The position numbers and the translations under genes were made by a program. Positions 5,059 through 37,814 of a stretch of DNA of 64,000 nucleotides are shown piece by piece. The stretch is from an uncultured Clostridium sp. (GTDB lineage: Bacteria; Bacillota; Clostridia; Oscillospirales; CAG-272). The DNA lies in contig CAZVUD010000001.1 in the NCBI GenBank assembly GCA_964629615.1, positions 89,795 to 153,794 of the forward strand. The letters run 5' to 3'. Every line of letters begins with the position of its first letter. The stretch's first letter is position 1. The notes under the pieces were generated by a model. It was given only the letters and a program-made list of their open reading frames with translations, ran no database searches and was not told where the DNA came from.

Positions 5059-5276
5059 GTATTTTTTTCAGCCTCGTCCGACAAAGAGTCCTCATTCGAT
5101 ACGCAGGATCTCTCACCCTTTTTATCCGAAAATATCAAAGACACCGCTATTACGCCTATCAATGCAAGTATCACGAACACATATAAAATGATCGCGATCT
5201 CGGATGTGAGAAAGCTGACAAAGCTGTCTATATTTATATCTGAAAGCGCCATTGCGCCGCAAAATGATCCTGACAT
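3972..5276 (-). CDS. Membrane-anchored McrB-like AAA+ GTPase (paralog 2)
   Basis: 434-aa ORF. It has a single N-terminal TM (IAIILYVFVILALIGVIAVSLIF, followed by KKGER). Its AAA+ core is identical to paralog 1 (GMSGTGKTS, LDEMNIARVEYYFAEF, GTANNDDS). Only the first ~73 aa differ from paralog 1. Confidence 0.65.
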   Translation of the reverse strand: MSGSFCGAMALSDINIDSFVSFLTSEIAIILYVFVILALIGVIAVSLIFSDKKGERSCVSNEDSLSDEAEKNTDSGERFCMLSNIDRNKENYGHKRYDECSSLEELCTEFRSFAASRLGLYYRMSDIRKFISGMAVSKLIILQGMSGTGKTSLAHAFGLFTDNPSVVIPVQPMWKERTDLVGYYNEFTKKFNETLLLRKMYEANYSGDMYVTVLDEMNIARVEYYFAEFLSLLELPDPDERYIDVVSDVWENDPIGLLDGRMRLPDNMWFIGTANNDDSTFAISDKVYDRAMILDLDSKAESFRAEKSRGLKISAEQFRHLTNDAIRRYSISRRNRNRLKELDEYLKENFHITFGNRIMKQILEYVPVYISCGGDELEALDDILSKKVIRKLETQNPIYLKNSADGLITFMDELFGEDAMPLSREHISRILRNT

Positions 5277-9231: not shown

Positions 9232-9946
9232 CTCTGTTGACCACCCGTTTTATCTTTCTTATGTATACACATCCCATAAGGAGTGCTATGATAGCTCCCG
9301 CAAGCACCGATACCGCAAGCATTGTCTTTCCGCTTATCGCTTTAATTGAGAAGAGCAGCAGGAAGGTCTCTGCACAGCTGCCTATAATATATCCCTCAAA
9401 GGCGGTAACGACAAGTGTAAGTATCATAGATATTAAAAGCCGCTTTTTGTCATATGTGACACGTATATCGCTTGATGAAAACATTCCGTCCACACGTCTC
9501 AGCACAAAGCTGATATATGATGTATCGGGCGGCAAGGACGCCATCTCGGTATATCCGACGCTTCTGATATGCTCGCATACGCCTATAACATCCAAAAGCT
9601 TGCCTTTGCTGTCATACACTATAATATCGTAGCTTATACTGCGAATGTGGGGATCTATCTTGCATTTTATATATTTTCTGCCGTCCTTTTCCATTAGCAC
9701 ATAGCTATCCACATACCTTCTGTAGCGAAGCTCGGGAAAATATCTTATCGCCCTGCCGCCGTCAAAGCGGAGCTTTCTGATACCGCGGTCGTAGGTATCA
9801 CATCCGAAAAATGTGAGCGACGGCACAAAGCGCCATATCACAGCACCGACAGTATAGACATATAAAAATATGCTCACCGACAATATAAGAAATGTGACGG
9901 CATTTGAAATTATAAGCTCCAAAAGTTCTCTATTCATGCTTATCAC
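9224..9946 (-). CDS. Hypothetical polytopic membrane protein
   Basis: 240-aa ORF with an N-terminal TM (AVTFLILSVSIFLYVYTVGAVIW), a central ~110-aa soluble region and C-terminal TMs. The start is uncertain: GTG at 9946 or ATG at 9937. Confidence 0.4.
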   Translation of the reverse strand: MISMNRELLELIISNAVTFLILSVSIFLYVYTVGAVIWRFVPSLTFFGCDTYDRGIRKLRFDGGRAIRYFPELRYRRYVDSYVLMEKDGRKYIKCKIDPHIRSISYDIIVYDSKGKLLDVIGVCEHIRSVGYTEMASLPPDTSYISFVLRRVDGMFSSSDIRVTYDKKRLLISMILTLVVTAFEGYIIGSCAETFLLLFSIKAISGKTMLAVSVLAGAIIALLMGCVYIRKIKRVVNRDE

Positions 9947-9978
9947 AAAACCGCTTAGGTATTCTCCTTCCCCTCAAG

Positions 9979-11475
9979 TTATGTCGCATTATTCAGATTG
10001 TAGCTGTCAAAGAACTCCATGAGCCTTTCGGACGTTATATTGCCCTCTTCCTTTGAAAGCTCCTCAAGCATGCGCTCTGCCGTTACTCTCGCAACATCAT
10101 CGGAAACGTCTACTCCGTAATCCTTCATATACTTCAATGCATTCTCTGTCATGACATCCAGCTTTTTCTCATCGCTCATGCCCTTCAGGTCATTGAGAGA
10201 ATCCGCAAGGTCGTCCATAAGCATCTGATATTCCGTGATATTTTTCTTAAGATCATCTATGACAGATGCCACTGCATTGAGTGTCATATTGCGCACTGTC
10301 TTTTCTATATGTCTCATTCTCGGGTTGTCGTCAAGTATATCGCATATCTTATCTATAAGCTCATTTTCGGATATGATCGCCATTATCTCCTCATAATTTC
10401 CGCTCTGCAAAATACCGCTCTCTGCCGCAAGAACATATATGCGCAAAAGAGTATCCGCATCTCTTACCACAGTCTTTGGCGTTGTGCTCGTGCAGGTATA
10501 AAGTATCTCAGACAGTAATGGCTCTATGACCTCATTTACACTTGGAAGGATGATGTCCATATACGGCTCACCAACAAGCCACTTCCCCGATGCTCCCGAC
10601 AACAAGTCAGCCGAGAGCGACTTTGCTGTCTCGCTCTTTTTTATCTTTTTGGGCAGAGCAAGCAAGTCATCCATTTGATACGGCTCTGCTTCACCTATAT
10701 TTTTTATGACATTTACGCCGGCTATGAGATCGGGAAGCGAATCGCGTGCGGCTCTTATCTCGCGCACGAGGGAAAATCTGTTGTCGTTTAGCGTAGATGA
10801 TGATACCATTCTGTAGGTTACATTGCCGCCCAAGCAATGAAGCATATCGGAGATGCCATCGCTTGAATATTTCTCTATCAAAAAGTCGATATCATCGCCT
10901 ATTTTAACGCTTCCGCTGATCACGGGGTTTTCCTTGACGGTACAGGACAGCTCGTGCGCACAGTTGAGCGTTCCCGTGATCGGTGACATTATAACGGATG
11001 AGAGTATGACACCAAATACAGCGCCTACGATAGCGCCAAGCACCTTTGAGTCGCGCATATACCACGCTGCAAGCTCACCTTCATGCTCGGATGCTCCGCC
11101 GAATTTTGACATCTTCTTTTTCAGTACGGCAGACAGAATTATGCTAAGGGTGGCATACACAAACGGCAAAACAAAAAGGAAGAGCACGGGCGTTATCGCC
11201 GCATCTATAAATGCCCACATGACATCCCCTATATTCGCAAGCTGCTTTTCAATTTCTACCATAAAGTCGGTATCTTCAAGAAGCTCATAGATAAGATCGG
11301 TTATGGCATTGGATGCCAAAAAGGATATAAGTGCCGTTATCAAAATGGCACATATAAGCTTTGCCGACCGTATCAACGAATCGTATATTCCGCGACTGTA
11401 TCCCCGACATGCCCCCACAAGGACACACATCAGGGTAAGGATCAGAACAAATGCGGAGATGAGGGTAATGGTCAT
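9979..11475 (-). CDS. CvpA-like membrane protein with large C-terminal helical domain (first gene of operon)
   Basis: 498-aa ORF with RBS AAGGAGGAG. The N-terminal ~150 aa (ISAFVLILTLMCVLVGACRGYSRGIYDSLIRSAKLICAILITALISFLA...) resemble the CvpA/colicin-V-production membrane family. The remainder is unassigned. Confidence 0.45.
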   Translation of the reverse strand: MTITLISAFVLILTLMCVLVGACRGYSRGIYDSLIRSAKLICAILITALISFLASNAITDLIYELLEDTDFMVEIEKQLANIGDVMWAFIDAAITPVLFLFVLPFVYATLSIILSAVLKKKMSKFGGASEHEGELAAWYMRDSKVLGAIVGAVFGVILSSVIMSPITGTLNCAHELSCTVKENPVISGSVKIGDDIDFLIEKYSSDGISDMLHCLGGNVTYRMVSSSTLNDNRFSLVREIRAARDSLPDLIAGVNVIKNIGEAEPYQMDDLLALPKKIKKSETAKSLSADLLSGASGKWLVGEPYMDIILPSVNEVIEPLLSEILYTCTSTTPKTVVRDADTLLRIYVLAAESGILQSGNYEEIMAIISENELIDKICDILDDNPRMRHIEKTVRNMTLNAVASVIDDLKKNITEYQMLMDDLADSLNDLKGMSDEKKLDVMTENALKYMKDYGVDVSDDVARVTAERMLEELSKEEGNITSERLMEFFDSYNLNNAT

Positions 11476-23993: not shown

Positions 23994-25637
23994 CTATTCA
24001 GCAATGATCTCAACTATCTCTCTTATCTTGTCGTTTTCACTGCTTCTGTATACAACATTCATATGATCGCCAACATTTGTAAGTACAATGCTCTCAATAT
24101 CCGCAACGCGACATTTATATGTGTAGCCGTCGTCGCCGCTGATATAATAATAGGTATTGCCGTCTATAACTGCATCAGTTATTCTCGTTACATTAAACTC
24201 AGCCCTTGCATCATCGCTGTTGCCTATGTCCGGTCCATTGCCAATACCCTTATCCGACAAAAGCTTTTTATACGCCTTCATAACATCGCCGCGCGTAGAG
24301 CCCGTGGCAACGAGATTGACATTTTCAACATTTACAAGAGCATACAGCTTTACATATCCGCCGTCGTCCTTCAAGACCATGATATAGGTAGCTGTTCCCG
24401 ACACATTGATAAGCGACGGGAAGGACGCCTTGTATCCCATGTTCTGTACCTGACCCTCGGCTGATTTCATCGCACTATATTCCTCAGCGCCCACAACGGG
24501 ATAATACTTATATTCGCCCGTGCGCGCATTACTGATTATAAAACCGATATTGGACTCATCATTCGTTACAGAGGTAACGCCTGTAAAATACCACACATCG
24601 TCACCTATCACGATATATCCGTAATCGTCCGTGGTCTGCTTACAGCCCTTATTTCCAATAACTGAATTTATATATCCGCCCGAGAGCATGCCATGCCAAT
24701 TGTATTTTTCCTCGGCAAGATCGCCCGAAAATACCGCGTCTACCCAAGACGGCACATCGGACAGCGCATATATACTGCTGTCACCGCTTACGGGATCGAA
24801 TATGATGACTTCATTTACGTCCATAGCGCCGAAGAGTCCCGCATTTGCCGAAACACAGGATACGATATAATAGGGGTTGCCCTCCTCGTCTATCTCAAAG
24901 CTGATAAAATCAAATATCTTTGTCGGATGATCAAATCTGAGCTTTCTTATCAGATTTTCGCCAAAATATGCCGATTCGACATATTTTAAGGGCTTATCAA
25001 GGCTTACATATTCTCCGTCGTTCTCCACAGGGTCCACAAGAACATATCCGGGTATGCCGCTATCCTTATTATTGAGCCACTTGAAAAATCCTGCATATTC
25101 AAGATTTGACACCTTTTTGGGAGTTCCGCCGTAATTTATCTGCGTGTATCTTTCGCTCACCTCATACTGCGACACTACATCCGAAAGCTTACCGAGGGTC
25201 CTGTTGCCGAATATCTTGGCAGATTCACTGTCCATAAGTGCGATATTCGTGACATCGCTTGTTTCCTTCATATCCTCTTCAAACACAGCATCCTTGACTT
25301 CTATAACGCTTGCATATTTCTCTGCATTGAACATCTCAGATGAAGCAATTCCGCACAGTATAGCTATTGCCGCAGGTGCGATAACTATGATGGCAGGCAC
25401 CATATTCAGGCTTATGTTTGCAGAATTATTGGTCTTGCCATTCTTTTTAGTCTGAGCTTTTTTTGCTTTAAACAAAAACGGCGCAAGATAAAATGCAAAT
25501 GCCACCGTAAGGTATACCCAGAACAGAGGCGAATGAACATTTACGGGCGGAAGGATAAGATAATACAATCCTCCGCTTAAAAGCGTTCCGCCAACGACGG
25601 ATATAATGATCTTTGTGATCAAATTCTTTTTTTCCAT
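23994..25637 (-). CDS. Hypothetical membrane protein with large extracytoplasmic domain
   Basis: 547 aa with three N-terminal TM segments, then a ~440-aa domain of unrecognised family. It has its own promoter. Confidence 0.4.
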   Translation of the reverse strand: MEKKNLITKIIISVVGGTLLSGGLYYLILPPVNVHSPLFWVYLTVAFAFYLAPFLFKAKKAQTKKNGKTNNSANISLNMVPAIIVIAPAAIAILCGIASSEMFNAEKYASVIEVKDAVFEEDMKETSDVTNIALMDSESAKIFGNRTLGKLSDVVSQYEVSERYTQINYGGTPKKVSNLEYAGFFKWLNNKDSGIPGYVLVDPVENDGEYVSLDKPLKYVESAYFGENLIRKLRFDHPTKIFDFISFEIDEEGNPYYIVSCVSANAGLFGAMDVNEVIIFDPVSGDSSIYALSDVPSWVDAVFSGDLAEEKYNWHGMLSGGYINSVIGNKGCKQTTDDYGYIVIGDDVWYFTGVTSVTNDESNIGFIISNARTGEYKYYPVVGAEEYSAMKSAEGQVQNMGYKASFPSLINVSGTATYIMVLKDDGGYVKLYALVNVENVNLVATGSTRGDVMKAYKKLLSDKGIGNGPDIGNSDDARAEFNVTRITDAVIDGNTYYYISGDDGYTYKCRVADIESIVLTNVGDHMNVVYRSSENDKIREIVEIIAE

Positions 25638-25698: not shown

Positions 25699-25722
25699 GC
25701 TTTTCTAATATAATTAGAAAAA

Positions 25723-25750
25723 ATCCCGTCGGGGCAAGCCCCGACGGGAT
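25723..25750 (-). terminator. Rho-independent terminator ending the capsid-module operon
   Basis: 12-bp GC-rich stem atcccgtcgggg/ccccgacgggat with a 4-nt loop, followed on the minus strand by TTTTTT. It lies 3 nt after the stop of 25754..26044. Confidence 0.75.
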
Positions 25751-25753
25751 TAG

Positions 25754-26044
25754 TTAAAGATTAAGATACTGTATTAAAAACGAAGCGATCGCGCCTGCTA
25801 TAACGCTTGCGGCATAGCTCACGGTTTTTATAAGTATCTCGGCAGGACGCCGCTCTATCCGCTTAAGGCGCCTGCGGCTCTCACTGCAGATGATCTCCTG
25901 ATTTTCAACCATAGGCTCAAGCTTTCGGGTGCATTTTTCAAGGTCCTCTATCTTGTCCTCGTGCCGCTCAAGCACCTCATTAGTTCTGCGGTGTCTTTCA
26001 TCACAAAGCTCTTTGTTGAATGATTCCATATTTTTCTCCTCCAT
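25754..26044 (-). CDS. XhlA-like (haemolysin XhlA family) small membrane protein
   Basis: 96 aa. The N-terminal coiled region with CDERHRRTNEVLERHEDKIEDLEK and the C-terminal TM (AASVIAGAIASFLIQYL) match the XhlA architecture. Confidence 0.4.
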   Translation of the reverse strand: MEEKNMESFNKELCDERHRRTNEVLERHEDKIEDLEKCTRKLEPMVENQEIICSESRRRLKRIERRPAEILIKTVSYAASVIAGAIASFLIQYLNL

Positions 26045-26088
26045 TTACGGTATCTGTGACGTCACATCCCGGAAGGACCTGCAAAATA

Positions 26089-26478
26089 TCAGATATTGTC
26101 TGCGCTCTCATCCAAAAACTTCTTTTGTTCAGCTTCAAGATACTGAGCTGTTTTCATATCCTGTATTTCAGACTGCTCAAGCACAAGGGCAAATTTGCGT
26201 CTGACCTTGACCCACTCACCGCGCTTTATCATACAGTTTTTTCCGTTTACAGCAACGTAAACATCATCCTTGTATCTGTCATTATCGCGGAAAAGCTTTA
26301 CGCTCACATATTCGTTAAGATAGTCCTCGTCCTTTGCGCGCTTCATAAGCGCATCGTCCGCCGCCTTTTTTTCCTTTTGTCTGAAATAGGCACATTCGGC
26401 TTCCTTTTTTGCAAGCTTTTCCTCGTATTCAGCCTTGAGCGCATTGAGCGCATCCTTATATTTCATATCGTTTTCCAT
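26089..26478 (-). CDS. Hypothetical phage-module protein
   Basis: 129-aa ORF immediately downstream of the capsid gene; charged and helical. I recognise no family. Confidence 0.3.
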   Translation of the reverse strand: MENDMKYKDALNALKAEYEEKLAKKEAECAYFRQKEKKAADDALMKRAKDEDYLNEYVSVKLFRDNDRYKDDVYVAVNGKNCMIKRGEWVKVRRKFALVLEQSEIQDMKTAQYLEAEQKKFLDESADNI

Positions 26479-26526
26479 AAGATCCTTCCTTTCGATGATC
26501 GGTTATTTATTTTTTATTGCATGCTG

Positions 26527-27819
26527 TCAGTCATTTGCGGATGAGGCAGTTTCTATTCTGATCATAAATGCCTCGCAAAGACGCATACTTACCTTATTTG
26601 CCTTCCAGCCGACAGTGGCTCTCTGATTTAAGGGATCGTTTGCGCCCGATGAGCCAAGCTGCTTTACTATATGCTCAAGTCCGCCGCCCTCTACCGATGT
26701 CGTGCCGTATGCATTGTCGCCAAATACGACAGTTGCATATACCTTGCATCCGTCCTTGCCTGCATCGGCAGGATATATGGGCGTGCCTGCAGGCGCGCTT
26801 ATATTAGCTTCATTCTCCTTGCTCTCATCGGTATATATGTACATTACCTGTGAGGAATTAGAGCCAACAAAGTATCTCTCTCCGTTTATAAATACCCACC
26901 TGTTTGCAAGAGTGTTGGTCTTTACATCAGACCTTGCCGTAAACTGGATGACATTGGAATTTGTCACCTGCGATGTAAGCGAGAGAGGATCCTTTGAAAG
27001 CGGAGTGGGCGTAAACACCTTTGCCTCGGTGCTTTCTATAAATCTTACGCCCTCGATCTTTCCTATCTCGCCTTCAAAAATATTGTCATTTGCCGCATAC
27101 TGATTGGGAAATTTCCAATTGGGATCGCTCATGAGATCATACGCGCAATCGGGGTGGATTATCGCAATGTATGAGCCATTTATCTTCTCGGCATTCTGAT
27201 TTTTTAAAAATCTGACCGCGCGTCTTATCGCATTTACGGTAAGATAGCAATTGTCCTTCTCGTCAGCCTGATTTCCAGCGACAAGATATCTTGCACTCAC
27301 CTGCCCTTCACCATACTGCACGTTAGTGCCACCGCAGACCACCTCGCGCGTGATCGCATCAAGCGTTCTGCCTGCCTGTGCGCCAAGCAGCTTCGTTGCC
27401 ATGACAAGATCGTTGTCTATGGCAGTCATAAGCAGCATATCGCTAAGCTCCACATATCCGCCGTACTGCGCAAGCGTAGCATTGACCACGCTCATGTCTA
27501 TCTTCTGACCTGTAGGTGTAACGCCCTCCTTGATCTCATCCGTCAAGGTGGGCAACGGATCGTACTTGCGAAACTGTATGGTCTTGCCGCTTCCGCGAGG
27601 TATCCTCACCTTCTGCGCAAATCTGTCAAATACCAGTGCAGGCTCTGCGTTATCTATAAGATAATCGCTGTAATAGGTCTTCATCTGCTCACTGAGCCCC
27701 ATTCCCTCCGCATAAGGTGTATTTACACCGCTCTGAGCGTCCGTCATACCTTCGGTGGTATGGACGTTTTCAGATGCACCGAAAAGCGAAAGGTCGATTT
27801 TTGTAGCTTTAATGTTCAT
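26527..27819 (-). CDS. Major capsid protein, N4-gp56 family-like
   Basis: 430 aa. The block FDRFAQKVRIPRGSGKTIQFRKYDPLPTLTDEIKEGVTPTGQKIDMSVVNATLAQYGGYVELSDMLLMTAID...GAQAGRTLD matches my recollection of N4-gp56-type major capsid proteins. Confidence 0.75.
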   Translation of the reverse strand: MNIKATKIDLSLFGASENVHTTEGMTDAQSGVNTPYAEGMGLSEQMKTYYSDYLIDNAEPALVFDRFAQKVRIPRGSGKTIQFRKYDPLPTLTDEIKEGVTPTGQKIDMSVVNATLAQYGGYVELSDMLLMTAIDNDLVMATKLLGAQAGRTLDAITREVVCGGTNVQYGEGQVSARYLVAGNQADEKDNCYLTVNAIRRAVRFLKNQNAEKINGSYIAIIHPDCAYDLMSDPNWKFPNQYAANDNIFEGEIGKIEGVRFIESTEAKVFTPTPLSKDPLSLTSQVTNSNVIQFTARSDVKTNTLANRWVFINGERYFVGSNSSQVMYIYTDESKENEANISAPAGTPIYPADAGKDGCKVYATVVFGDNAYGTTSVEGGGLEHIVKQLGSSGANDPLNQRATVGWKANKVSMRLCEAFMIRIETASSAND

Positions 27820-27841
27820 ATCTTACTCATTCTCCTGTAAT

Positions 27842-28285
27842 TTATTTTAAATTGATCATCTCTCCGCTTGCCGCACGGCGTGCAACAAGCGCACGTTCCT
27901 CACGTGTCATTTCGGAAACACGCTTTCCCGAGCCTACAGCCCCCTTTACGGTGCCGTTTTCCGACACTCTCTGCCGTCTGCTCCTTATCTTTTGCAAAAG
28001 CTCCCTTTCGGCGCTCTCGCGTATCTCCTTTTCACGGGATGCAAGGCTGTCGGCTGCATTCTTCACCGCTTCGGCTCTCGCCCGGGCTATATCCGCCTCA
28101 AAAAAGCTCTTATATATTCCACATGTGAGTCTTAAATAGTCCTCACGCATGATCTCCCTGCATTCCTCATCGCCGATATCGCATATTTCCATATCGCTAT
28201 CAGTATCTGTATTGTTATTGCTATCCGCGTCGCACGCATCGGGCATGCCGCATCCGTCATTTAAAATATCTTCTGTCATAAACAT
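27842..28285 (-). CDS. Putative scaffolding protein
   Basis: 147 aa with an acidic N-terminus, helical E/R-rich core and basic C-terminus. It sits directly upstream of the capsid gene. Confidence 0.4.
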   Translation of the reverse strand: MFMTEDILNDGCGMPDACDADSNNNTDTDSDMEICDIGDEECREIMREDYLRLTCGIYKSFFEADIARARAEAVKNAADSLASREKEIRESAERELLQKIRSRRQRVSENGTVKGAVGSGKRVSEMTREERALVARRAASGEMINLK

Positions 28286-28309
28286 CTCCTATCATGGCTT
28301 ATCTTAGCT

Positions 28310-28660
28310 TTATATATCCGCTCTTTTCGGCAGCTTTTTCAGTATATGTGAGTCCCATATGCCGTTTTTTACTGATACCTGATCGGGATATGACTCACTT
28401 ATCTGAAGGATACCTATGCAAGCCATTCTGAAGGCTTCGGTATCGGAGGTGCGGCAGCTTATGCTTGCATGTCCGCGCTCTAATCGCCTTACCTCGATAT
28501 CATTCGGATACCTATTATACAGATATCCGAGCAACGTGTAAAATATCGCCGACACCGCGGCACATACGACCGTCTGACCGCCTTCTTTATAAGTGGAGTG
28601 TCCGCATATCTCAAGAGATATCACTTCCTCCCCTTCTTTTTTGAAATCCACGCTTATCAT
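28310..28660 (-). CDS. Prp-like cysteine protease (ribosomal-processing protease family paralog)
   Basis: 116 aa. EICGHSTYKEGGQTVVCAAVSAI carries the His...Cys dyad context (GH..G.D.VCAAVS) of Prp/DUF464. Compare the chromosomal Prp at 38922..39287 (GHTGYGEEGDDVLCAALSAM). Confidence 0.65.
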   Translation of the reverse strand: MISVDFKKEGEEVISLEICGHSTYKEGGQTVVCAAVSAIFYTLLGYLYNRYPNDIEVRRLERGHASISCRTSDTEAFRMACIGILQISESYPDQVSVKNGIWDSHILKKLPKRADI

Positions 28661-28723
28661 ATATCAGATCTCCATTCCGCCGCGGTGCGGCACAAGCAGT
28701 GCTTTATATACATATATCATAGG

Positions 28724-30274
28724 CTACTCACCCTTAGTGCTCTCAAATATCGCGCTCTTAAGTCCGCCAAGCCCCTCATAATCGACAAGGGTCAGCAAGA
28801 GCTTTGTCTGCTCAAGATTTTCGCTCTTGAACGCTCCGCATCTGTAAAGCTCAAGCGCAAATTCGTTGAGCTCCTTGCGCTCGTTATAGGTCTTTTTATG
28901 TGTATCTATGCTTATGTCAAAGCATGGGCAGTATCCGTCGTCGCGGCGTCTTATATTGTCCGCCTTGAAATACTCATAGCTGTAACCGTTATCCCCCGCA
29001 ATGCGGAACACCCTTTCTTCGGTATAGAACTGTCTTATCAGCTCAAGCGTCAATTCCCATATCTTTACACACGCGCGGCAGGAATTTTCAATGCCGTCGC
29101 GTGAGAATTTGGCATTTGCACTCTGAAGCATGCTTATAGCCGATGCCGCGCTGACATTTCCGTTCGTCCTTCCGACAGACACATCGTGACAGCCTGTTAT
29201 TTCCTTAAGCTCGTCTATCTTCATCTGCATGATATCCACAACGCTTGCATCCATGCTTCCCGTATCTATGCGCTTAAGCTTCTCTTCGTCGATATCCCCC
29301 TCGACCTCAACTATCTGCTTGCTTGTGTCCTGAAAATCCCCGATATTAACGCCAAGGCTCTTTTTTGCCCAAAACCTCACATTTGAGGCAAGGTCGGAAT
29401 AGTTCTCAATGTTCTTGTCCAGCCTGTCAATGTATTCCTCGCATTTTCTGCCGAGCGCTATCAAGCCAAATCCGCATACACTTCCGTCGCACGGATACAT
29501 GGCATCAAAAACCACAGGATATCTCCCGTGACTGTACCATCCGTCAATGCAAGCCTCATCATCCTCAGAGGAATATATGACCCCGTACTCGCAGAGCTTG
29601 CAAAAATGCAGTATGCTGTGCCCGTCAACATATTTTTTATAATACCAATCCACAACGGCGCACTTACCGTCGCGCATGCCATCAGATCCGTATATGCAGG
29701 ATGTGAGATCGCCGTATATGCCTATTTGGTCATCAATATCAAGATTAGGATATTTTTCCTTCAGCTTGTCCTTGTCCTCCAAGGCGCAGATAAACAGGTC
29801 CTTTGAGTCCTCAATGTCCTCAACACCAAACTCCCAGAATATGTTGTCGATATTTATCTTAGTTATGCTCACATCTCCAAGCCCGTCGCACATGTCGTTG
29901 TCCCAGAATACTCCGTACACTGCTGTGCCGTATCTTATCTTATTCCATGCGTTATCGCTGTATATCTGCTCAAATCCGCTCCTTGAATTGATCACGGGAA
30001 TTATCCTGCCAAGCACCGCTGCCGCCTCCGCATCTCTTTCCTCACGCGGCAGACATACGCAGGTGGGCATATTATCGGCAATATCCGCGTGCTTATTTAA
30101 GATACTGTTGTGCAGCCACGATGAGCCCTTGCCTGAAAGATATCTTTCATTCCAATAATATCTCTCGCTCTTTATCCTGTTTGTAAGCTCGGTCTTGGAA
30201 TAAATATACTTCTTCAGCGTCTGTATTCCGTATATAGGATCCGGAGCTTTGATCCTGATCTTCTCCTTACTCAT
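28724..30274 (-). CDS. Phage portal protein
   Basis: 516 aa, placed between the terminase and the protease/scaffold/capsid genes. Size and position are typical of a portal. The family call rests on synteny plus general similarity. Confidence 0.65.
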   Translation of the reverse strand: MSKEKIRIKAPDPIYGIQTLKKYIYSKTELTNRIKSERYYWNERYLSGKGSSWLHNSILNKHADIADNMPTCVCLPREERDAEAAAVLGRIIPVINSRSGFEQIYSDNAWNKIRYGTAVYGVFWDNDMCDGLGDVSITKINIDNIFWEFGVEDIEDSKDLFICALEDKDKLKEKYPNLDIDDQIGIYGDLTSCIYGSDGMRDGKCAVVDWYYKKYVDGHSILHFCKLCEYGVIYSSEDDEACIDGWYSHGRYPVVFDAMYPCDGSVCGFGLIALGRKCEEYIDRLDKNIENYSDLASNVRFWAKKSLGVNIGDFQDTSKQIVEVEGDIDEEKLKRIDTGSMDASVVDIMQMKIDELKEITGCHDVSVGRTNGNVSAASAISMLQSANAKFSRDGIENSCRACVKIWELTLELIRQFYTEERVFRIAGDNGYSYEYFKADNIRRRDDGYCPCFDISIDTHKKTYNERKELNEFALELYRCGAFKSENLEQTKLLLTLVDYEGLGGLKSAIFESTKGE

Positions 30275-30293
30275 AGTATGATATTTTCCTTTC

Positions 30294-31790
30294 TTATCTG
30301 CGGTATGATGTAGATCCGTACCGCTCTGCTTCGATCGCAGGTGCGCGTACGGTCATGCCCACCTCTCTTTTTGGGGCTTTCATGGGATTTTCCATACACA
30401 CATACCGAAATTCGTCATATATATGGTCCTCACCCTTTGTATTTACGTCCTCAACGTCTACCGTATCATATACAAGTGACGGAAAGGTGCGTATAAAGTT
30501 TCTGCAGCTTGAGAAAACATAGAATGACGGTCGTCCGTCAGGCAGAAATGCAAGTCGATTGTGTACCTGTTGCTTACCTGCAATTCGTGAATTGTCGCCC
30601 CTGTCAAAATAAACGCCTCGCTTCTCCATGATCTCGCCGATGCTCTCACCCCCGTTTTTCTGAAATATTGCGGGGTCGGCGACACCTCGGATATGGCGCA
30701 TTGACAGATTGGGATCCTCAGATTCTATCCTTCTTATCTCGTTTGCTATTCTGCCTGCATCCCATCTCACACCCTCATCAGCCACACCGTCGCATCCGTA
30801 AAGCTCGCGTATGCGATACAGCTTGCCCTCTCTGTCACAGGCATACCAGCCGACCGAAAAGGGCTTTGTATATCCCCAGTCAAAGCCGCGGTATACCTGC
30901 CAATCGCGCGGTATCAGAAATGGTCTTATAACATGCGTATATATTCCGTCCAGATATCCGTCGGGATTATCTCTCCACTCTGAAAACACCTGCCCTGAGA
31001 AGCTGTTCCAATCTCCGTAAAGCAGAGCTGCACGCTCCTTTTGCGGAAGTGCCGCAAGACGTGTGAGATATCCCGGGTCGTTCTTCATAAGTATTTCGTT
31101 GTCGAATATGGTAGAGGGGACGAATATACGCGATCTTCTGCGCGTCTCCTCGTGCCCGTCGGGAAACATTATCTTTACCATTTCCCATATCGTTGTGAGA
31201 GGGGGCGCAGGTGTGATAAACCTGTCCTTGACCCACCCATGACCGATACCGCCCGGATTTGCCTGCGCCCTTATGTAACAGCGCGTGTTTGCGCCGTTGG
31301 GTCTGTTTCGTGAAAACAGATAACTGTATTCATCAAAGGTAAACTGTGTCAGCTCGTCAAAATCTATGAAATCATACCGCTTTCCCTGATAGTTATATTT
31401 ATCCGCAGGATGGGCAAGAGATCCGAAATATATCTTAGCTCCCGACGGAAATCTCCATACATGCTTTGACTCATTATACACGGCATCGGGATTTGCGGGG
31501 AGATATATCTCGTGTGAGCGGTCTATAAGCTCGGAGAGCTGCGGATATGTCTTTCTTAGTATCAGCCCCCTGTAATGCGGAATGTCTATCTGGCGCAGAG
31601 CTTCTGCAAGCGCGCAATCGCTCTTGCCTCCGCCTGCCGCACCGCCGTAAAGCGCTTCGTCCTCCAGACGCGACATAAATTCCCGTTGCTTTTTTTGCGG
31701 ACGCCATATATATCTTTTGCTCATATCCCTGCCGCTTTTGCCTGTATGCTTCATGGGTATGCCGCGATCACTCCGTGTCTTCATACTCAC
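30294..31790 (-). CDS. Terminase large subunit
   Basis: Walker A YGGAAGGGKSD and Walker B-like YDFIDFDELTQF, with a C-terminal nuclease-type region (GVADPA...GEDHIYDEFRY). The start is uncertain because several in-frame Met codons are present. Confidence 0.85.
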   Translation of the reverse strand: MSMKTRSDRGIPMKHTGKSGRDMSKRYIWRPQKKQREFMSRLEDEALYGGAAGGGKSDCALAEALRQIDIPHYRGLILRKTYPQLSELIDRSHEIYLPANPDAVYNESKHVWRFPSGAKIYFGSLAHPADKYNYQGKRYDFIDFDELTQFTFDEYSYLFSRNRPNGANTRCYIRAQANPGGIGHGWVKDRFITPAPPLTTIWEMVKIMFPDGHEETRRRSRIFVPSTIFDNEILMKNDPGYLTRLAALPQKERAALLYGDWNSFSGQVFSEWRDNPDGYLDGIYTHVIRPFLIPRDWQVYRGFDWGYTKPFSVGWYACDREGKLYRIRELYGCDGVADEGVRWDAGRIANEIRRIESEDPNLSMRHIRGVADPAIFQKNGGESIGEIMEKRGVYFDRGDNSRIAGKQQVHNRLAFLPDGRPSFYVFSSCRNFIRTFPSLVYDTVDVEDVNTKGEDHIYDEFRYVCMENPMKAPKREVGMTVRAPAIEAERYGSTSYRR

Positions 31791-32304
31791 CTATCCTATC
31801 TGCATCAGGTATATCCACCTCACACACAGCTTCCACCGATGTGCCGTCGGGCTTGTCTGACCACCTGTCGGGTTGCCTGTTTTTGAGCCAGAATGAAGTA
31901 GCTCTCACATCCGCAGGTATGTAATTCTCGTCCTCACCGACGCAAAGCTCCTCATATTCCCTGAGCTTTTTACCCGTATCGGGGTCGTAATCCACACGCT
32001 TGAGCTTATACGTCTTGTTGACCTTGACGCTGTATCCGCATGCCTTCTTATATAAAGCATCTATCACGGCATAATCAGCACCTGCGCGCCCGAGCTTCAG
32101 GGCGTCCGAAAATTCCTTGTGTGTTGCCTTCCAGCGTTTGAATGTCGCATGTGATATACCCGAATCGATCGCGATATCCTTATCCGAATACCCATCCTCC
32201 GCCATGCGCCTCAGATATTCTGCGCCGCGCTCCTCCATGAAGCTCTCATATTTCGTTTTCCTCATTCTCTGATAGATCAGACGTATCAATTCCGACAGAC
32301 ACAT
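31768..32304 (-). CDS. Terminase small subunit
   Basis: HTH (DIAIDSGISHATFKRWKATH) and the ATSFWLKNRQPDRWSDK block typical of small terminases. The true start is probably an internal Met (32265 or 32238). Confidence 0.6.
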   Translation of the reverse strand: MCLSELIRLIYQRMRKTKYESFMEERGAEYLRRMAEDGYSDKDIAIDSGISHATFKRWKATHKEFSDALKLGRAGADYAVIDALYKKACGYSVKVNKTYKLKRVDYDPDTGKKLREYEELCVGEDENYIPADVRATSFWLKNRQPDRWSDKPDGTSVEAVCEVDIPDADRIGEYEDTE

Positions 32305-32548
32305 GATAGCAGTCGCCGCCGTCAGTCACTCTTATATGCATAAGCGGATCATTTATCCTGTCCGACAGCTCTTGCTTGTTTATTACGCACTCTCCTTCTG
32401 AAAATGCAAACGTAAGCAGGGCTTTGAGCATCATGACCGTCTCATTTAGTCCCTCACATCTTTCCTTATACTCTCTTATAACTCCGTTTCGCTCGCGGAG
32501 CATATCACAAAGCCTGTTCGATCTTGACACCGCTGTATTTCCTTTCAT
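32246..32548 (-). CDS. Hypothetical island protein
   Basis: 100-aa ORF in operon context. I recognise no family. Confidence 0.3.
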   Translation of the reverse strand: MKGNTAVSRSNRLCDMLRERNGVIREYKERCEGLNETVMMLKALLTFAFSEGECVINKQELSDRINDPLMHIRVTDGGDCYHVSVGIDTSDLSENEENEI

Positions 32549-32729
32549 AATAGTTATCCATCATAATTTTAAACGGACATTCCTTCCATTTCGTCGGGTG
32601 GGCGCAATATCCGTAAATTATTTCTCTCTTAGCCTTTTTGTCAGGAAAAGCAAATCTCGTACACTCACAGCATACGCGTCTTTCCCTTCCAACCTCTTTC
32701 ACATATGGACAAGTTCCTCTGAATGCCAT
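32505..32729 (-). CDS. Small Cys-rich protein (possible zinc-binding), first gene of island operon
   Basis: 74 aa: CPYV...CCEC...CAHPTKWKECPF. Confidence 0.3.
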   Translation of the reverse strand: MAFRGTCPYVKEVGRERRVCCECTRFAFPDKKAKREIIYGYCAHPTKWKECPFKIMMDNYYERKYSGVKIEQAL

Positions 32730-32850
32730 TTAAAATTCCTTTCTATGCCATTTGGCTGATCTATATTATTGTTAAGTTTTCTAAACTCTGTGTTCAAAAA
32801 AATATACCGGTCTATTCTCCAAAAACACGGTCTGCAACTTAACTGTGAAT

Positions 32851-32879
32851 ATTATAGCACATTTGTTCTATAATGTCAA
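32851..32879 (-). promoter_or_regulatory. Consensus sigma-A promoter of the head/packaging operon
   Basis: The minus strand reads TTGACA-17 nt-TATAAT, an exact consensus, about 115 nt upstream of the ATG at 32729. Confidence 0.7.
32856..32869. promoter_or_regulatory. Operator O1: imperfect GAAC-N4-GTTC-like palindrome inside the promoter spacer
   Basis: The minus strand reads AGAACAAATGTGCT, one mismatch from the O2 palindrome. It lies between the -35 and -10 elements of the island promoter. Confidence 0.55.
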
Positions 32880-32918
32880 GCAAAAGTAAAGTTTTCTGAA
32901 CTTTTTTGTTTTTCCTTA

Positions 32919-32947
32919 TTGACAAAAGGGTTTTTGTGTGTTAAAAT
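32919..32947 (+). promoter_or_regulatory. Sigma-A promoter of the repressor gene
   Basis: TTGACA-17 nt-TGtTAAAAT (extended -10). Confidence 0.6.
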
Positions 32948-32956
32948 CAAAATATA

Positions 32957-32970
32957 AGAACAAAAGTTCT
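32957..32970. promoter_or_regulatory. Operator O2: perfect palindrome AGAACAAAAGTTCT (Cheo/SOS-box-like GAAC-N4-GTTC)
   Basis: Perfect 14-bp palindrome just downstream of the predicted repressor-gene transcription start. Confidence 0.6.
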
Positions 32971-33006
32971 ATTAATAAATTGTGAACAGGATGAAAAAGG
33001 GATATT

Positions 33007-33621
33007 ATGGATGATCGCACATTTTCAAAAAGACTCGCATCTCGACTGCATGAGCTCAACATGTCGCAGGCAGAGCTGTCAAGACAGACCGGGATCTCAA
33101 AGGCACGCATAAGCCAATATATGCACGGAGCCTACAAGCCGTCAGGGGATGCCACGGTCAAGCTTGCAAAAGCTCTCATGTGCTCAGAGGAATATCTGCT
33201 TTGCTACACGCATGAAGCAGATACGCAGTCTGACGGGCGGCGACTCAAGATACTTGGCGAGGTCAGATGCGGTCTGCCTGCCTTGGCTGAAGAGATATAT
33301 GACGGTGAGATCATAACAGACAGATATATAGACGCCGACTTCTGCCTCAGAGCCAAGGGAGACAGCATGACAGACGCACGCATATGCGACGGCGATATAG
33401 TTTACATCAAGCGCACCGACAGCGTCTGTAACGGTGACATCGCAGTTATCATAATCGACGGTGAAACTACCCTCAAGCGCGTGTATTTCTACCCCGACTC
33501 CCATAAGCTTATACTCATCCCCGAAAATAAAAATTACAAGCCCCTCACCTACTCGGGCGAGGAGCTTGCAAACGTGCGCATACTCGGAAAAGCAGTAGCC
33601 TTTACCTCAAAGCTTCTGTAA
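33007..33621 (+). CDS. Phage-type repressor: XRE-family HTH + S24 (LexA/CI-like) autopeptidase domain
   Basis: 204 aa. HTH LNMSQAELSRQTGISKARISQYMHG. S24 motifs RAKGDSMTDARICDGDIVYIKR (Ser) and TTLKRV (Lys). Confidence 0.8.
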   Translation: MDDRTFSKRLASRLHELNMSQAELSRQTGISKARISQYMHGAYKPSGDATVKLAKALMCSEEYLLCYTHEADTQSDGRRLKILGEVRCGLPALAEEIYDGEIITDRYIDADFCLRAKGDSMTDARICDGDIVYIKRTDSVCNGDIAVIIIDGETTLKRVYFYPDSHKLILIPENKNYKPLTYSGEELANVRILGKAVAFTSKLL

Positions 33622-33831
33622 CAGCAATTCAGATATAAAATCACACACTACATCATCTGCATGCGCCATTGTAACCTCACCTATATTGCATATCGCGGCA
33701 AATCTCTCGATCTTGTCGCGATCTCTGCATATACCTGCATAATATCGGTACAGATTTCCTTCCCTATTACAAATTTTAAGCCCCCAGATGCCGTCCGCTT
33801 CCTTTTCAGCGGAAAAAATCAGTATGTCCAT
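33607..33831 (-). CDS. Hypothetical small protein, convergent with and overlapping the 3' end of the repressor gene
   Basis: 74-aa ORF overlapping the repressor gene by 15 nt. I recognise no family. Confidence 0.25.
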   Translation of the reverse strand: MDILIFSAEKEADGIWGLKICNREGNLYRYYAGICRDRDKIERFAAICNIGEVTMAHADDVVCDFISELLLQKL

Positions 33832-37073: not shown

Positions 37074-37814
37074 ATGAACAAGAGCAACACTTTTTTCATC
37101 AAATACTCTATCATAACATTGATAATTTGCGCACTTGTGTGCGTTATCATTATATTTTCATCCAATATCACAGGTGCGAGCGAGCAAAGCTCATACGCAT
37201 CTGAAGAAGGATCTCCCGTAACAGTTATAATTGATGCTGGTCACGGCGGAGAGGACGGAGGCACGCAAAGCAGGGATGGTCTGCTTGAAAAGGATCTGAA
37301 TCTTGATATAGCAAAACGATTGAGCCTGCTTTTTTCACAAAACGGCGTAAATGTAATAATGACACGCAGTGACGACAGGCTTCTCTACGACAAAAATGGT
37401 GACTACAAGGGGCGAAAAAAAGCCCTTGATGCGCAGGCAAGACTGAATATCGCAAGCGAAGATCCGAATGCAATATTTATAAGCATACACCAAAACTATT
37501 TTTCAAGCTCGCAGTACAGCGGACTTCAGGTGTGGTATTCAGGCAATGACAACAGATCCATGGAGCTTGCGCAATATATACAGAACGGTGTAAAAAGCAC
37601 GCTCCAACCCAATAACAACCGACAGACAAAGCTTGCGGGCAGTAACATATATCTGCTTGAGCATATAAAAAACCCTGCGGTGCTTATAGAATGCGGATTT
37701 CTGTCAAATCCCGAGGAAGCCAAAAGGCTGTCAGACCCCACGTACAGACAAAATCTTTCAGAGGTGATATACAGATCCGTGACAGAATATATAAAAATGT
37801 CAGAAAAAGCTTGA
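37074..37814 (+). CDS. cwlD: N-acetylmuramoyl-L-alanine amidase, CwlD-like (Amidase_3) with N-terminal TM
   Basis: An N-terminal TM, then VIIDAGHGGEDGGT...ISIHQN...ECGFLSNPEE. Size and layout match the germination-specific CwlD. Confidence 0.65.
   Translation: MNKSNTFFIKYSIITLIICALVCVIIIFSSNITGASEQSSYASEEGSPVTVIIDAGHGGEDGGTQSRDGLLEKDLNLDIAKRLSLLFSQNGVNVIMTRSDDRLLYDKNGDYKGRKKALDAQARLNIASEDPNAIFISIHQNYFSSSQYSGLQVWYSGNDNRSMELAQYIQNGVKSTLQPNNNRQTKLAGSNIYLLEHIKNPAVLIECGFLSNPEEAKRLSDPTYRQNLSEVIYRSVTEYIKMSEKA

What the first reader, a model, noticed from the sequence alone, without database searches (positions are those of the whole stretch)
25718..33831. Compact SOS-box-controlled island encoding only capsid assembly and DNA packaging functions (tailless, no integrase or replication genes)
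Seen in sequence: ten tightly packed co-directional genes run from an exact-consensus promoter (32851-32879) to a strong terminator (25723-25750). In order they are a Cys-rich 74-aa protein, a 100-aa protein, TerS, TerL, portal, Prp-like protease, scaffold-like protein, N4-gp56-type major capsid protein, a 129-aa protein and an XhlA-like membrane protein. An XRE/S24 repressor is divergent from this operon.

All ORFs look intact. Within the ~8 kb I see no tail, tape-measure, baseplate, head-tail connector, endolysin, integrase, excisionase or replication genes. The flanks are ordinary chromosomal genes: an independent membrane-protein gene with its own promoter on one side, and rpsF-ssb-rpsR on the other.

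Established knowledge: capsid-forming PICIs and GTAs are precedents for elements that make only part of a virion. Both normally carry additional functions (int/pri-rep, or tail genes).

Inference: this could be a minimal capsid-forming satellite that borrows tails from a helper. It could be a domesticated packaging or GTA-like module released by XhlA-type lysis. Or it could be an unusually well-preserved prophage remnant. The first two would be novel in this minimal form.
Basis: partly seen in the sequence, partly recalled or inferred. Interest (0 to 1): 0.8.

Follow-up and report, generated by a model that had tools for sequence, protein, structure and literature searches.

The report
Domesticated tailless phage-head gene cluster
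This 8-kb island is a phage head-and-DNA-packaging gene set that an uncultured gut Clostridia lineage has kept intact in its chromosome across many species, most likely to make small DNA-filled particles like the recently described Faecalibacterium gene transfer agent, but here without any linked tail-attachment genes.

Summary
Ten co-directional intact genes (32729→25754, minus strand) run from a 12/12 consensus promoter to a strong terminator. They encode TerS, TerL, a P22-type portal, a Prp protease, an N4-gp56 capsid protein and small unknowns. An HTH/S24 repressor is divergent. I found no tail, integrase, replication or endolysin gene in the 64 kb.

It is not a decaying remnant, and a mobile satellite is unlikely. 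The same core sits in about 80 species-representative gut Clostridia/Oscillospiraceae MAGs, in four fixed chromosomal contexts, with no interrupted core reading frame. Synonymous sites are saturated, while dN matches the neighbouring housekeeping genes. Island divergence tracks flank divergence (r=0.95). The regulatory intergenic region is conserved almost base for base.

The closest known system is FpGTA of Faecalibacterium prausnitzii (Nat Commun 2026). It has the same gene order, the same capsid family, and Prp between portal and capsid. It makes 40-nm particles without identifiable tails that carry about 9 kb of host DNA.

Sister groups keep the FpGTA-like genes after the capsid gene (putative adaptor and nozzle). 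The window's lineage has lost them, so tail functions must come in trans or be dispensable.

Verdict: a further-reduced, SOS-type-regulated variant of a known GTA-like kind. Direct sequence comparison with FpGTA could not be made.

The parts
25722..25751 (-). Intrinsic terminator that closes the operon
   Evidence: 13-bp stem, 9 GC pairs, followed by a T-run
25754..26044 (-). 96-aa protein with an N-terminal coiled coil and a C-terminal transmembrane helix; weakly XhlA/hemolysin-like
   Evidence: phrog_1193 'hemolysin' at E=0.003 only. Homologues are present in context groups A and C and in L084.
26089..26478 (-). g129: conserved 129-aa protein that always follows the capsid gene. It occupies the same position as the 'unknown' RCH50848 of FpGTA.
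   Evidence: phrog_15239 at 1e-24. Present in all context groups and in related complete phages. The AF2 model has pLDDT 78.6 and shows a helix, a small beta domain and a helix. It has no significant PDB fold match.
26527..27819 (-). Major capsid protein of the N4-gp56 family. Its N-terminus (K-I-D-L-S-L-F-G-A) resembles the cleavage motif of a Prp substrate.
   Evidence: TIGR04387 at 282 bits; phrog_1357 at 5e-82. L10, L12, F13, G14 and A15 are invariant in 15 homologues.
27842..28285 (-). 147-aa acidic/basic protein in the scaffold position
   Evidence: Inferred from its position between protease and capsid gene. The C-terminus matches phrog_13908, a family of unknown function. Weak conservation, 30-50% identity.
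28310..28660 (-). Prp-type cysteine protease, a phage paralogue rather than the ribosomal Prp
   Evidence: PF04327 at 2e-14. NCBIfam Prp equivalogs score far below their cut-offs. The GH...VCA catalytic dyad is invariant in 62 homologues.
28724..30274 (-). Portal protein, P22 type
   Evidence: PF16510 at 8e-24; phrog_156 at 4e-50
30294..31790 (-). Large terminase subunit
   Evidence: Terminase_6N at 1e-14; phrog_979 at 4e-60
31768..32304 (-). Small terminase subunit with an N-terminal HTH
   Evidence: phrog_309 at 1e-34. HTH_7 scores 23.7 bits, at the cut-off.
32246..32548 (-). 100-aa protein of unknown function
   Evidence: ORF. Weakly conserved, 29-39% identity, in groups A-D.
32505..32729 (-). 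Cys-rich 74-aa protein, the first gene of the operon in every group; probably zinc-binding
   Evidence: Conserved pattern CPY...CEC..F.FPD...C.HP...C.FK...YYERKY in 22 sequences. No family match.
32774..32903 (-). Operon control region. It holds a consensus sigma-70 promoter (-35 at 32879-32874, -10 at 32856-32851), GAACAAATGTGC in the spacer (32857-32868), two AAGTTnnGAAAACTT palindromes (32889-32903 and 32774-32788), and a conserved AATAGACCGGTATAT7 block in the leader.
   Evidence: The palindrome occurs only at these two sites in the window, against 0.11 expected. All elements are conserved in 7 species.
32919..32969 (+). Repressor promoter (11/12 match) followed by a perfect GAACAAAAGTTC (Cheo/LexA-type) box at 32958-32969
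   Evidence: The box is conserved in the window and in 5 of 6 sister loci.
33007..33621 (+). CI-like repressor: XRE HTH plus an S24 self-cleaving domain. It has a Cys-Gly cleavage site, a GDSM serine and a TLKR lysine.
   Evidence: Peptidase_S24 at 2e-24 and HTH_3 at 8e-10. The motifs were read from the translation.
33607..33831 (-). 74-aa ORF, convergent with the repressor gene and overlapping its end; conserved with the island in groups A and B
   Evidence: Weak DUF6514 match, 2e-4. Homologues sit at the same position in 16 loci.
23994..25637 (-). 547-aa protein with 3 transmembrane helices and a large outside domain. It has its own promoter and is a possible accessory gene of the island.
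   Evidence: It follows the island in group A (next to topB) and in many group B loci (next to an Mbeg1-like gene). Mean column identity is 65%. No Pfam, PHROG, PADLOC or PDB match.

Best explanation
The island is a domesticated, chromosomally fixed head-and-packaging module derived from a family of ~40-kb phages with podovirus affinities that infect gut Clostridia. It is a GTA-like 'viriform' of the FpGTA type.

Proposed working, with each step marked as shown or inferred:
1. In uninduced cells the CI-like HTH/S24 repressor keeps the consensus promoter shut. LexA acting at the GAAC-N4-GTTC-type boxes may contribute (inferred).
2. DNA damage activates RecA, the repressor cleaves itself at its Cys-Gly site, and the operon fires (inferred from motifs and conserved operators).
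3. TerS, TerL, portal, scaffold and N4-gp56 capsid protein build a small procapsid. The Prp protease trims the capsid protein's N-terminal L27-like leader (inferred).
4. Terminase fills the heads with DNA by the headful. By analogy with FpGTA these would be ~40-nm particles holding about 8.5-9 kb of host DNA (inferred).
5. This lineage has lost the linked genes that I infer to be adaptor and nozzle. Head completion, any tail and lysis must therefore be supplied from elsewhere, either a second chromosomal locus as in FpGTA operon II or a resident phage of the same family. Podovirus tails assemble stepwise on the filled head, which makes supply in trans plausible (inferred).

What is shown directly: the gene content, and its long-term vertical inheritance under purifying selection.
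For: Gene content and signals.

Same island at the same locus in species with 67-80% capsid identity.

Same core in 80 species-representative MAGs, in four fixed contexts.

Uninterrupted frames: TerL 69/69, portal 73/73, capsid 75/75, Prp 60/60.

Selection: proportion of synonymous differences is 0.7-0.8 (saturated). dN is 0.15 for TerL, 0.13 for capsid and 0.23 for portal, against 0.15 for topB and 0.09 for degV and fakA.

Co-divergence: island identity against flank identity gives r=0.95 with Mantel p~0.0015 in group A, and r=0.63 with p~0.0005 in group B.

Phylogeny: each context group is monophyletic in capsid and TerL trees.

Composition: island GC is 46.8% against 45.2% for the window.

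Regulation: the intergenic control region is nearly invariant across 7 species.

Precedent: FpGTA operon I runs TerS, TerL, portal, Prp, N4-gp56 capsid, unknown, adaptor, nozzle. It produces 40-nm particles with no identifiable tails carrying ~9 kb of host DNA. Tail fibre and lysis genes lie 125 kb away (PMC12946183).

Ancestry: related ~40-kb phage contigs carry the same head module plus c29-c20.
Against: No direct sequence comparison with FpGTA proteins was possible. Homology rests on shared family names, gene order and host order.

The window lacks the putative adaptor (c29) and nozzle (c20) genes that FpGTA operon I and sister groups C/D keep. It is therefore unclear how filled heads would be sealed or deliver DNA.

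TerS here keeps an HTH, unlike the FpGTA TerS. Packaging could be site-specific rather than random.

No holin or endolysin is linked.

Particle production, packaging and transfer are all untested. Only 64 kb of the genome is visible.
Confidence: 0.7

Rival explanations
1. It is a capsid-forming satellite (cf-PICI-like). The island packages itself into its own small capsids and steals tails from a helper phage in order to spread between cells.
For: It has a complete head and packaging set with no tail genes, as in cf-PICIs. TerS keeps an HTH and could recognise a pac site. The island is ~8.1 kb, about the size of an FpGTA headful of 8.4-8.9 kb. Related ~40-kb phages that could act as helpers exist in gut viral-contig collections. 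A preprint on the mouse gut called similar clusters in Oscillospiraceae and Butyricicoccaceae 'capsid-forming satellite-like'.
Against: There is no integrase, excisionase, primase-replicase, att repeat or tRNA. Neither a head-tail adaptor nor a connector was detected; both are cfPICI core components. The chromosomal position is fixed within host clades, and the island co-diverges with flanking genes. It holds about 6 of 11 cfPICI core components, where at least 9 are required.
Confidence: 0.1
2. It is a domesticated head module kept for a purpose other than gene transfer. Examples would be SOS- or phage-triggered suicide or defence (terminase cutting and packaging DNA, or decoy heads that soak up an invading phage's tail parts), or release of protected extracellular DNA.
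For: Strong purifying selection persists even though the putative adaptor and nozzle genes are lost in groups A and B. Control is of the damage-inducible type, with an S24 repressor in groups A-C and an ImmA-like protease plus a short XRE regulator in group D. A conserved membrane protein of unknown function travels with the island. The authors of FpGTA themselves leave open whether its particles deliver DNA.
Against: No island protein matches any PADLOC defence model. The only characterised relative packages host DNA into released particles. There is no direct evidence for any such role.
Confidence: 0.15
3. It is an unusually well-preserved remnant of a prophage, drifting neutrally after its other modules were deleted.
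For: It is derived from a phage and lacks most phage functions.
Against: There are no interrupted core genes in about 70 species. Synonymous sites are saturated while dN stays as low as in housekeeping genes. Promoter and operators are conserved base for base. GC content is fully ameliorated.
Confidence: 0.02

Closest known systems
FpGTA of Faecalibacterium prausnitzii (Borodovich et al., Nat Commun 2026;17:2046; PMC12946183)
   Same: Both have an operon of about ten genes in the order TerS, TerL, portal, Prp-type protease, N4-gp56-family capsid protein, small unknown protein. Neither has an integrase or replication genes. Both are chromosomal and near-ubiquitous within the host clade, and both hosts are gut Oscillospirales. 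Both derive from short-tailed phages. In FpGTA, tail fibre and lysis genes are not linked to the head operon.
   Different: FpGTA operon I continues with adaptor, tail nozzle and a 'TolA'-annotated virion protein. The window has none of these; sister groups C/D do keep the putative adaptor and nozzle (c29, c20). The FpGTA TerS lacks a DNA-binding domain, whereas the window's TerS has an HTH. No regulator is described for FpGTA, whereas here there is a divergent CI-like S24 repressor with conserved operators. The window adds an XhlA-like protein and a linked 547-aa membrane protein. Sequence-level homology was not tested.
Alphaproteobacterial gene transfer agents (RcGTA type)
   Same: Both are phage-derived structural genes fixed in the chromosome, inherited vertically under purifying selection, without integrase or replication genes. 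In both, some functions are encoded at other loci.
   Different: RcGTA is siphovirus-like and its head-tail cluster includes tail genes. Its proteins are unrelated (HK97-type capsid with a serine protease, not N4-gp56 with Prp). It is regulated by CtrA/GafA and quorum sensing, not by a CI-like S24 repressor.
Capsid-forming PICIs (cf-PICI; Alqurainy et al. 2023; SatelliteFinder definition in PMC10085698)
   Same: Both encode their own TerS, TerL, portal, protease and capsid protein, with no tail or holin.
   Different: cf-PICIs carry an integrase, an AlpA/regulator, a primase-replicase, HNH, a head-tail adaptor and a connector. They excise, replicate and move between strains and species. None of that is seen here.
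~40-kb phage contigs of gut Firmicutes, with more distant Bacillus podoviruses of the Page/Pony group
   Same: They have a homologous head module: TerL 44-65% identical, capsid 48-53% (34% for Page/Pony), portal, Prp in most, and the g129 protein after the capsid gene.
   Different: The IMG/VR contigs reach 40-42 kb, and the one I examined (MT835662, 22.6 kb) carries tail-like genes downstream of the capsid gene. c29 and c20 lie 4-6 kb beyond the capsid gene.
PBSX of Bacillus subtilis
   Same: It is a defective, SOS-inducible, chromosomally fixed phage-like element of a Firmicute that packages host DNA. It is the source of the XhlA name.
   Different: PBSX has a full contractile tail and a linked xhlA-xhlB-xlyA lysis cassette. 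Its structural proteins are unrelated.

Membership tests
FpGTA-type GTA-like element | Major capsid protein of the N4-gp56 family (RCH50849.1 is so named by NCBI) | tested here: met
   The window capsid protein hits TIGR04387 at 281.9 bits against a cut-off of 60. FpGTA annotation.
FpGTA-type GTA-like element | Head operon order TerS-TerL-portal-Prp-capsid, followed by a small unknown protein | tested here: met
   Window order. FpGTA accession order is RCH50852 TerL, 50851 portal, 50850 Prp, 50849 capsid, 50848 unknown.
FpGTA-type GTA-like element | Adaptor and tail-nozzle genes within the head operon (RCH50847, RCH50846) | tested here: not met
   No homologue of c29 or c20 anywhere in the window (tblastn E>0.1). 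They are present in sister groups C/D and in related phages. That c29 is the adaptor and c20 the nozzle is inferred from gene order and a PHROG virion-protein match, not shown.
FpGTA-type GTA-like element | A second, unlinked locus with fibre, receptor-binding, holin and endolysin genes | not testable with these tools
   Only 64 kb of the genome is available, and none was found in it. In FpGTA the second locus is 125 kb away and is undetected in 7 of 12 strains.
FpGTA-type GTA-like element | Direct sequence homology to FpGTA proteins | not tested
   Faecalibacterium sequences could not be retrieved.
FpGTA-type GTA-like element | ~40-nm particles carrying ~8.5-9 kb of random host DNA | not testable with these tools
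   Experimental.
Gene transfer agent (general) | Phage-derived structural genes fixed in the host chromosome, vertically inherited, under purifying selection, with no integrase or replication module | tested here: met
Gene transfer agent (general) | Particles package host DNA in pieces too small to carry the whole element, and deliver it to recipients | not testable with these tools
   Experimental. Note that the island (~8.1 kb) is about the size of one FpGTA headful.
Capsid-forming PICI | Integrase and att sites, with variable insertion among strains | tested here: not met
   No integrase family. No flanking repeats or tRNA. Locus fixed within host clades.
Capsid-forming PICI | Primase-replicase and AlpA-type regulator | tested here: not met
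   No such families in the island or its immediate flanks. In the related loci, gene maps show no conserved extra gene in that position, but their flanks were not all scanned.
Capsid-forming PICI | Head-tail adaptor and connector genes for docking stolen tails | tested here: not met
   None detected. The fold of g129 matches no known adaptor.
Capsid-forming PICI | Own TerS, TerL, portal, protease and capsid protein; no tail or holin | tested here: met
Decaying prophage remnant | Pseudogenes, relaxed selection, patchy presence | tested here: not met

The most novel reading that the evidence does not exclude
Head-only packaging machines have been kept under selection across a broad span of uncultured Oscillospirales with no tail genes of their own at all. 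Their DNA-filled heads would be completed by adaptor, nozzle and fibres taken from unrelated or resident phages, or would work without a tail. This would be a chromosomal, vertically inherited counterpart of tail-stealing satellites. The TerS HTH and the match between island length and headful size would let the module preferentially ship itself and its neighbourhood.
Probability: 0.2. Interest if true: 0.8.

Novelty: new variant of a known kind. Interest (0 to 1): 0.55.

Why it matters
GTA-like packaging of host DNA has just been reported as common in gut Ruminococcaceae and Oscillospiraceae. Its genetic basis is known only for Faecalibacterium.

This island and its ~80 relatives would extend that basis to many uncultured gut Clostridia. 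They provide the first candidate regulators: a CI-like S24 repressor, or an ImmA-like protease with a short XRE regulator, together with conserved operators. They also form a natural reduction series, from full phage, to head plus putative adaptor and nozzle, to head only.

That series poses a sharp and testable question: what does a strongly conserved head-only packaging machine do, and where do its tail parts come from? It also gives gene markers for finding such elements in metagenomes, where they are currently called prophages or satellites.

Tried and rejected
**Retrieving FpGTA sequences for a direct comparison failed.**
- A search with the nozzle-like protein of L059 returned only 2 hits.
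- Cluster look-ups of ten 50%-identity representatives returned no names.
- A profile search with g129 returned 120 close relatives, none labelled Faecalibacterium.

**g129 function.**
- The PDB sequence-profile search gave nothing.
- The AF2 model (pLDDT 78.6) had no Foldseek PDB hit better than E=0.06.

**The 547-aa membrane protein.**
- No Pfam, PHROG, PADLOC or PDB match.
- The single-sequence AF2 model is unusable (pLDDT 38.7).
- It is not related to the nozzle-like c20 (hhalign probability 0.1).

**c20 and capsid profiles against PDB.** Neither gave a hit of use.

**att sites.** Only short imperfect repeats of chance quality were found, and no adjacent tRNA.

**Rfam.** Nothing was found in the island. 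A leader hairpin has z=-1.96 but no covariation to test.

**A tail-only locus.** A second viral-contig scan with c20 did not reveal one.

**The remnant reading** was considered and rejected on selection and co-divergence evidence.

**Mobility** was rejected on fixed context and congruent trees.

**Caveat.** The apparent double copy in MAG JAZRDO01 (L009 and L012) sits in the same genomic context twice, so it is more likely a mixed bin than a duplication.

Full report
**1. Observation**

| Gene | Evidence |
|---|---|
| TerS | phrog_309, 1e-34, with an N-terminal HTH at the Pfam threshold |
| TerL | Terminase_6N; phrog_979, 4e-60 |
| Portal | P22_portal, 8e-24 |
| Prp-type cysteine protease | PF04327, 2e-14 |
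| Capsid protein | TIGR04387 'N4-gp56 family', 282 bits against a cut-off of 60 |

The 74-aa, 100-aa, 147-aa and 129-aa products have no named function. The 96-aa product is only weakly XhlA/hemolysin-like (E=0.003).

The operon starts at a 12/12 consensus promoter with a TG extension (32879..32851). It ends at a 13-bp GC-rich terminator (25751..25722). The divergent gene at 33007-33621 encodes an HTH_3 + Peptidase_S24 protein. Read from its translation, it has a Cys-Gly cleavage site, a GDSM serine and a TLKR lysine, which is the equipment for RecA-stimulated self-cleavage.

I found no tail, integrase, replication, holin or endolysin family in the island. I also sampled most large ORFs in the rest of the window and found none there. 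Apart from a candidate defence locus at the left end, those ORFs that have a family match encode chromosomal functions: fakA, degV, topB, rpsF-ssb-rpsR, glycogen metabolism and ligA. ORFs of at least 250 aa from related complete phages hit the window only at 26-31 kb.

**2. The island is one member of a large, conserved family**

The capsid protein has thousands of relatives: 7841 at E<1e-10 among 8000 candidates scored, and 537 cluster representatives at 50% identity with E<1e-30.

Contigs carrying capsid proteins 80% and 67% identical to the window's show the same island in the same place, between rpsF-ssb-rpsR and topB-degV-fakA. Contigs at 65% identity show the same island between ftsZ/radC and ffh/rpsP.

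A scan of one genome per species returned 80 loci. All were from uncultured gut Clostridia, Oscillospiraceae or Eubacteriales MAGs of humans and ruminants. tblastn and ORF maps show the core Cys-rich, (100 aa), (TerS), TerL, portal, Prp, scaffold, capsid, g129 in every locus that is long enough.

The loci fall into four chromosomal contexts:

| Group | Left flank and regulator | After g129 | Right flank |
|---|---|---|---|
| A (window type) | rpsF-ssb-rpsR, DUF6514-like ORF, S24 repressor | XhlA-like protein, 547-aa membrane protein | topB-degV-fakA |
| B | ftsZ/radC, DUF6514-like ORF, S24 repressor | 547-aa membrane protein in some loci, then an Mbeg1-like gene | khpA-rpsP-ffh |
| C | sigma factor gene, S24 repressor | small ORF, c20 (524 aa), XhlA-like protein | melibiase and others |
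| D (GC 51-59%) | glpK, ImmA-like protease, short XRE regulator | c29, c24, c21, sometimes c20 | serC/serA/prfB or others |

c20 matches PHROG families annotated as 'internal virion protein' and 'head protein'. Group D also has an 88-aa TerS-like protein without an HTH in place of the window's TerS. None of the loci has an integrase or replication gene associated with the module.

**3. It is maintained by selection and inherited vertically**

Across these species the reading frames are uninterrupted: TerL 69/69, portal 73/73, capsid 75/75, Prp 60/60. The Prp catalytic His/Cys dyad is invariant in 62 sequences.

Between the window and its nearest relatives, synonymous sites are saturated (proportion of synonymous differences 0.7-0.8). 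Non-synonymous divergence of the island genes is in the same range as that of the flanking housekeeping genes:

| Gene | dN |
|---|---|
| TerL | 0.15 |
| Capsid | 0.13 |
| Portal | 0.23 |
| g129 | 0.17 |
| topB (flank) | 0.15 |
| degV, fakA (flank) | 0.09 |

Pairwise identity of island proteins tracks that of flanking proteins. In group A r=0.95 with Mantel p~0.0015. In group B r=0.63 with p~0.0005.

In neighbour-joining trees of capsid protein and TerL, each context group is monophyletic, and A+B join C. Group D is separate and its TerL groups with different phages. This suggests either a second domestication or a terminase swap.

The island's GC content equals that of its surroundings. No att-like repeats or tRNA flank it.

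These results exclude neutral decay and argue strongly against a mobile satellite.

**4. Regulation**

The 277-bp region between the repressor gene and the operon is conserved almost base for base in seven species whose proteins are only 60-80% identical. The conserved elements are:
- both promoters;
- a perfect GAACAAAAGTTC just downstream of the repressor promoter (32958-32969);
- GAACAnnTGTGC inside the spacer of the operon promoter;
- two AAGTT-N5-AACTT palindromes that bracket the operon promoter, which are the only two such sites in the window against 0.11 expected;
- an AATAGACCGGTATAT7 block in the leader.

GAAC-N4-GTTC is the Firmicute LexA (Cheo) box by established knowledge. A single perfect box is not significant by count alone, and I cannot tell whether LexA or the island's own repressor binds it.

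'SOS-type control' is therefore well supported through the S24 repressor. 'SOS box on the operon' is only partly supported.

**5. What is known**

Borodovich et al. (bioRxiv 2024; Nat Commun 2026;17:2046; PMC12946183) found GTA-like packaging of short host DNA fragments to be common in gut Ruminococcaceae and Oscillospiraceae. They described FpGTA of Faecalibacterium prausnitzii.

Operon I of FpGTA is ~10 kb with ten ORFs. [quoted passage not shown] Operon II lies 125 kb away and encodes fibres, a receptor-binding protein, holin and endolysin. It was not detected in 7 of 12 strains.

The particles are ~40 nm with no identifiable tails, and they carry ~9 kb of DNA.

The window's island has the same order and the same two diagnostic families: Prp between portal and capsid, and an N4-gp56 capsid protein. 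The order capsid, g129, c29/c60, c20 in my groups C and D parallels capsid, unknown, adaptor, nozzle in FpGTA. The identification of c29 as adaptor and c20 as nozzle rests on this order and on the PHROG match only.

I could not obtain Faecalibacterium sequences. Homology is therefore inferred, not shown.

A 2026 preprint on the mouse gut noted unresolved 'capsid-forming satellite-like' clusters in Oscillospiraceae and Butyricicoccaceae. I found no other description of this family in the library.

**6. Ancestry**

IMG/VR holds phage contigs of up to 40-42 kb with a homologous head module: TerL 44-65% identical, capsid 48-53%, Prp in most, and g129 after the capsid gene. In these contigs c29-c20 lie 4-6 kb further downstream. 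One unannotated faecal phage contig, MT835662 (22.6 kb), carries tail-like genes after them.

The data suggest a reduction series:
1. Full phage.
2. Head plus putative adaptor and nozzle (groups C/D, FpGTA operon I).
3. Head only (groups A/B, including this window).

**7. Mechanism and open points**

The best-supported working model has five steps.
1. DNA damage leads to self-cleavage of the S24 repressor, possibly together with release of LexA.
2. The operon is transcribed from the consensus promoter.
3. A small procapsid is assembled. Prp trims the capsid protein at its conserved N-terminal K-I-D-L-S-L-F-G-A motif. Residues L10, L12, F13, G14 and A15 are invariant. From my own knowledge, not checked here, this resembles the L27/phage 80alpha Prp cleavage site.
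4. DNA is packaged by the headful.
5. The heads are completed and released with parts encoded elsewhere.

Only the gene content and its evolutionary maintenance are shown. Everything else is inferred.

The main difficulty is that groups A and B have no linked adaptor or nozzle candidates, yet they are under selection as strong as groups that do. Either these parts are encoded at a second locus or by resident phages, or the heads do something that needs no tail.

Podovirus tails assemble stepwise on filled heads, so supply in trans is plausible. The retained HTH in TerS, and the near match between island length (~8.1 kb) and an FpGTA headful (8.4-8.9 kb), keep a self-packaging reading alive at low probability.

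**8. Verdict**

The satellite option is unlikely and the remnant option is refuted.

Because FpGTA is published, this is not a new kind of system. It is a new, further-reduced and differently regulated variant, spread across many uncultured gut Clostridia.

Confidence in 'domesticated GTA-like head module' is about 0.7. Interest is 0.55.

Noticed in passing
window 859-5276 (minus strand), with ORFs continuing to 11475: Two paralogous proteins (859-2202, 447 aa; 3972-5276, 434 aa) match the PADLOC candidate defence family PDC-M26A (E~4e-45) and weakly match LmuB. They flank a 560-aa DUF2357 protein (2265-3947). This is possibly an uncharacterised anti-phage defence locus. The ORFs at 8614-11475, upstream on the same strand, have no Pfam or PHROG match.
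   Followed up: partly
window 23994-25637 (minus strand): A 547-aa protein with three N-terminal transmembrane helices and a large outside domain. It is very well conserved (65% mean column identity in 12 species) yet has no Pfam, PHROG, PADLOC or PDB match. It sits next to the island in two different chromosomal contexts, which suggests a functional link.
   Followed up: partly
loci L052-L082 (group D), e.g. L053 3715-4230 and L059 3774-4581: In the high-GC relatives the fused HTH/S24 repressor is replaced by an ImmA-like metalloprotease (phrog_87, 1e-17) plus a short XRE regulator. TerS is replaced by an 88-aa TerS-like protein without an HTH. This is a different damage-sensing switch on the same head module.
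   Followed up: partly
window 32725-32850 (minus strand, operon leader): The conserved leader can fold into a hairpin that pairs GUUAAGUU near the transcript start with AACUUAAC downstream. It encloses the conserved AAUAGACCGGUAUAU7 block (z=-1.96). The sequences are invariant among relatives, so covariation could not be tested.
   Followed up: partly
L009 and L012 (both from MAG JAZRDO01): One MAG carries two diverged copies of the island (capsid 80% and 67% identical to the window's), both apparently next to rpsF-ssb. This looks like a bin mixing two related species rather than a duplication.
   Followed up: no
L015 and L019 (~11.8-17 kb), L024, L030: Very large surface-repeat proteins (952-2589 aa; the one inspected, in L024, has leucine-rich-repeat-like repeats) are inserted right after g129 in some group B loci. 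In L015 and L019 they lie between g129 and the 547-aa membrane protein gene. The 3' end of the island seems to be a hotspot for cargo.
   Followed up: no
window 37074-37814: An Amidase_3 protein with an N-terminal membrane anchor lies 3 kb from the island. I read it from memory as CwlD-like, hence probably a sporulation/germination enzyme and not a lysis gene of the island. Its conservation with the island was not examined.
   Followed up: no
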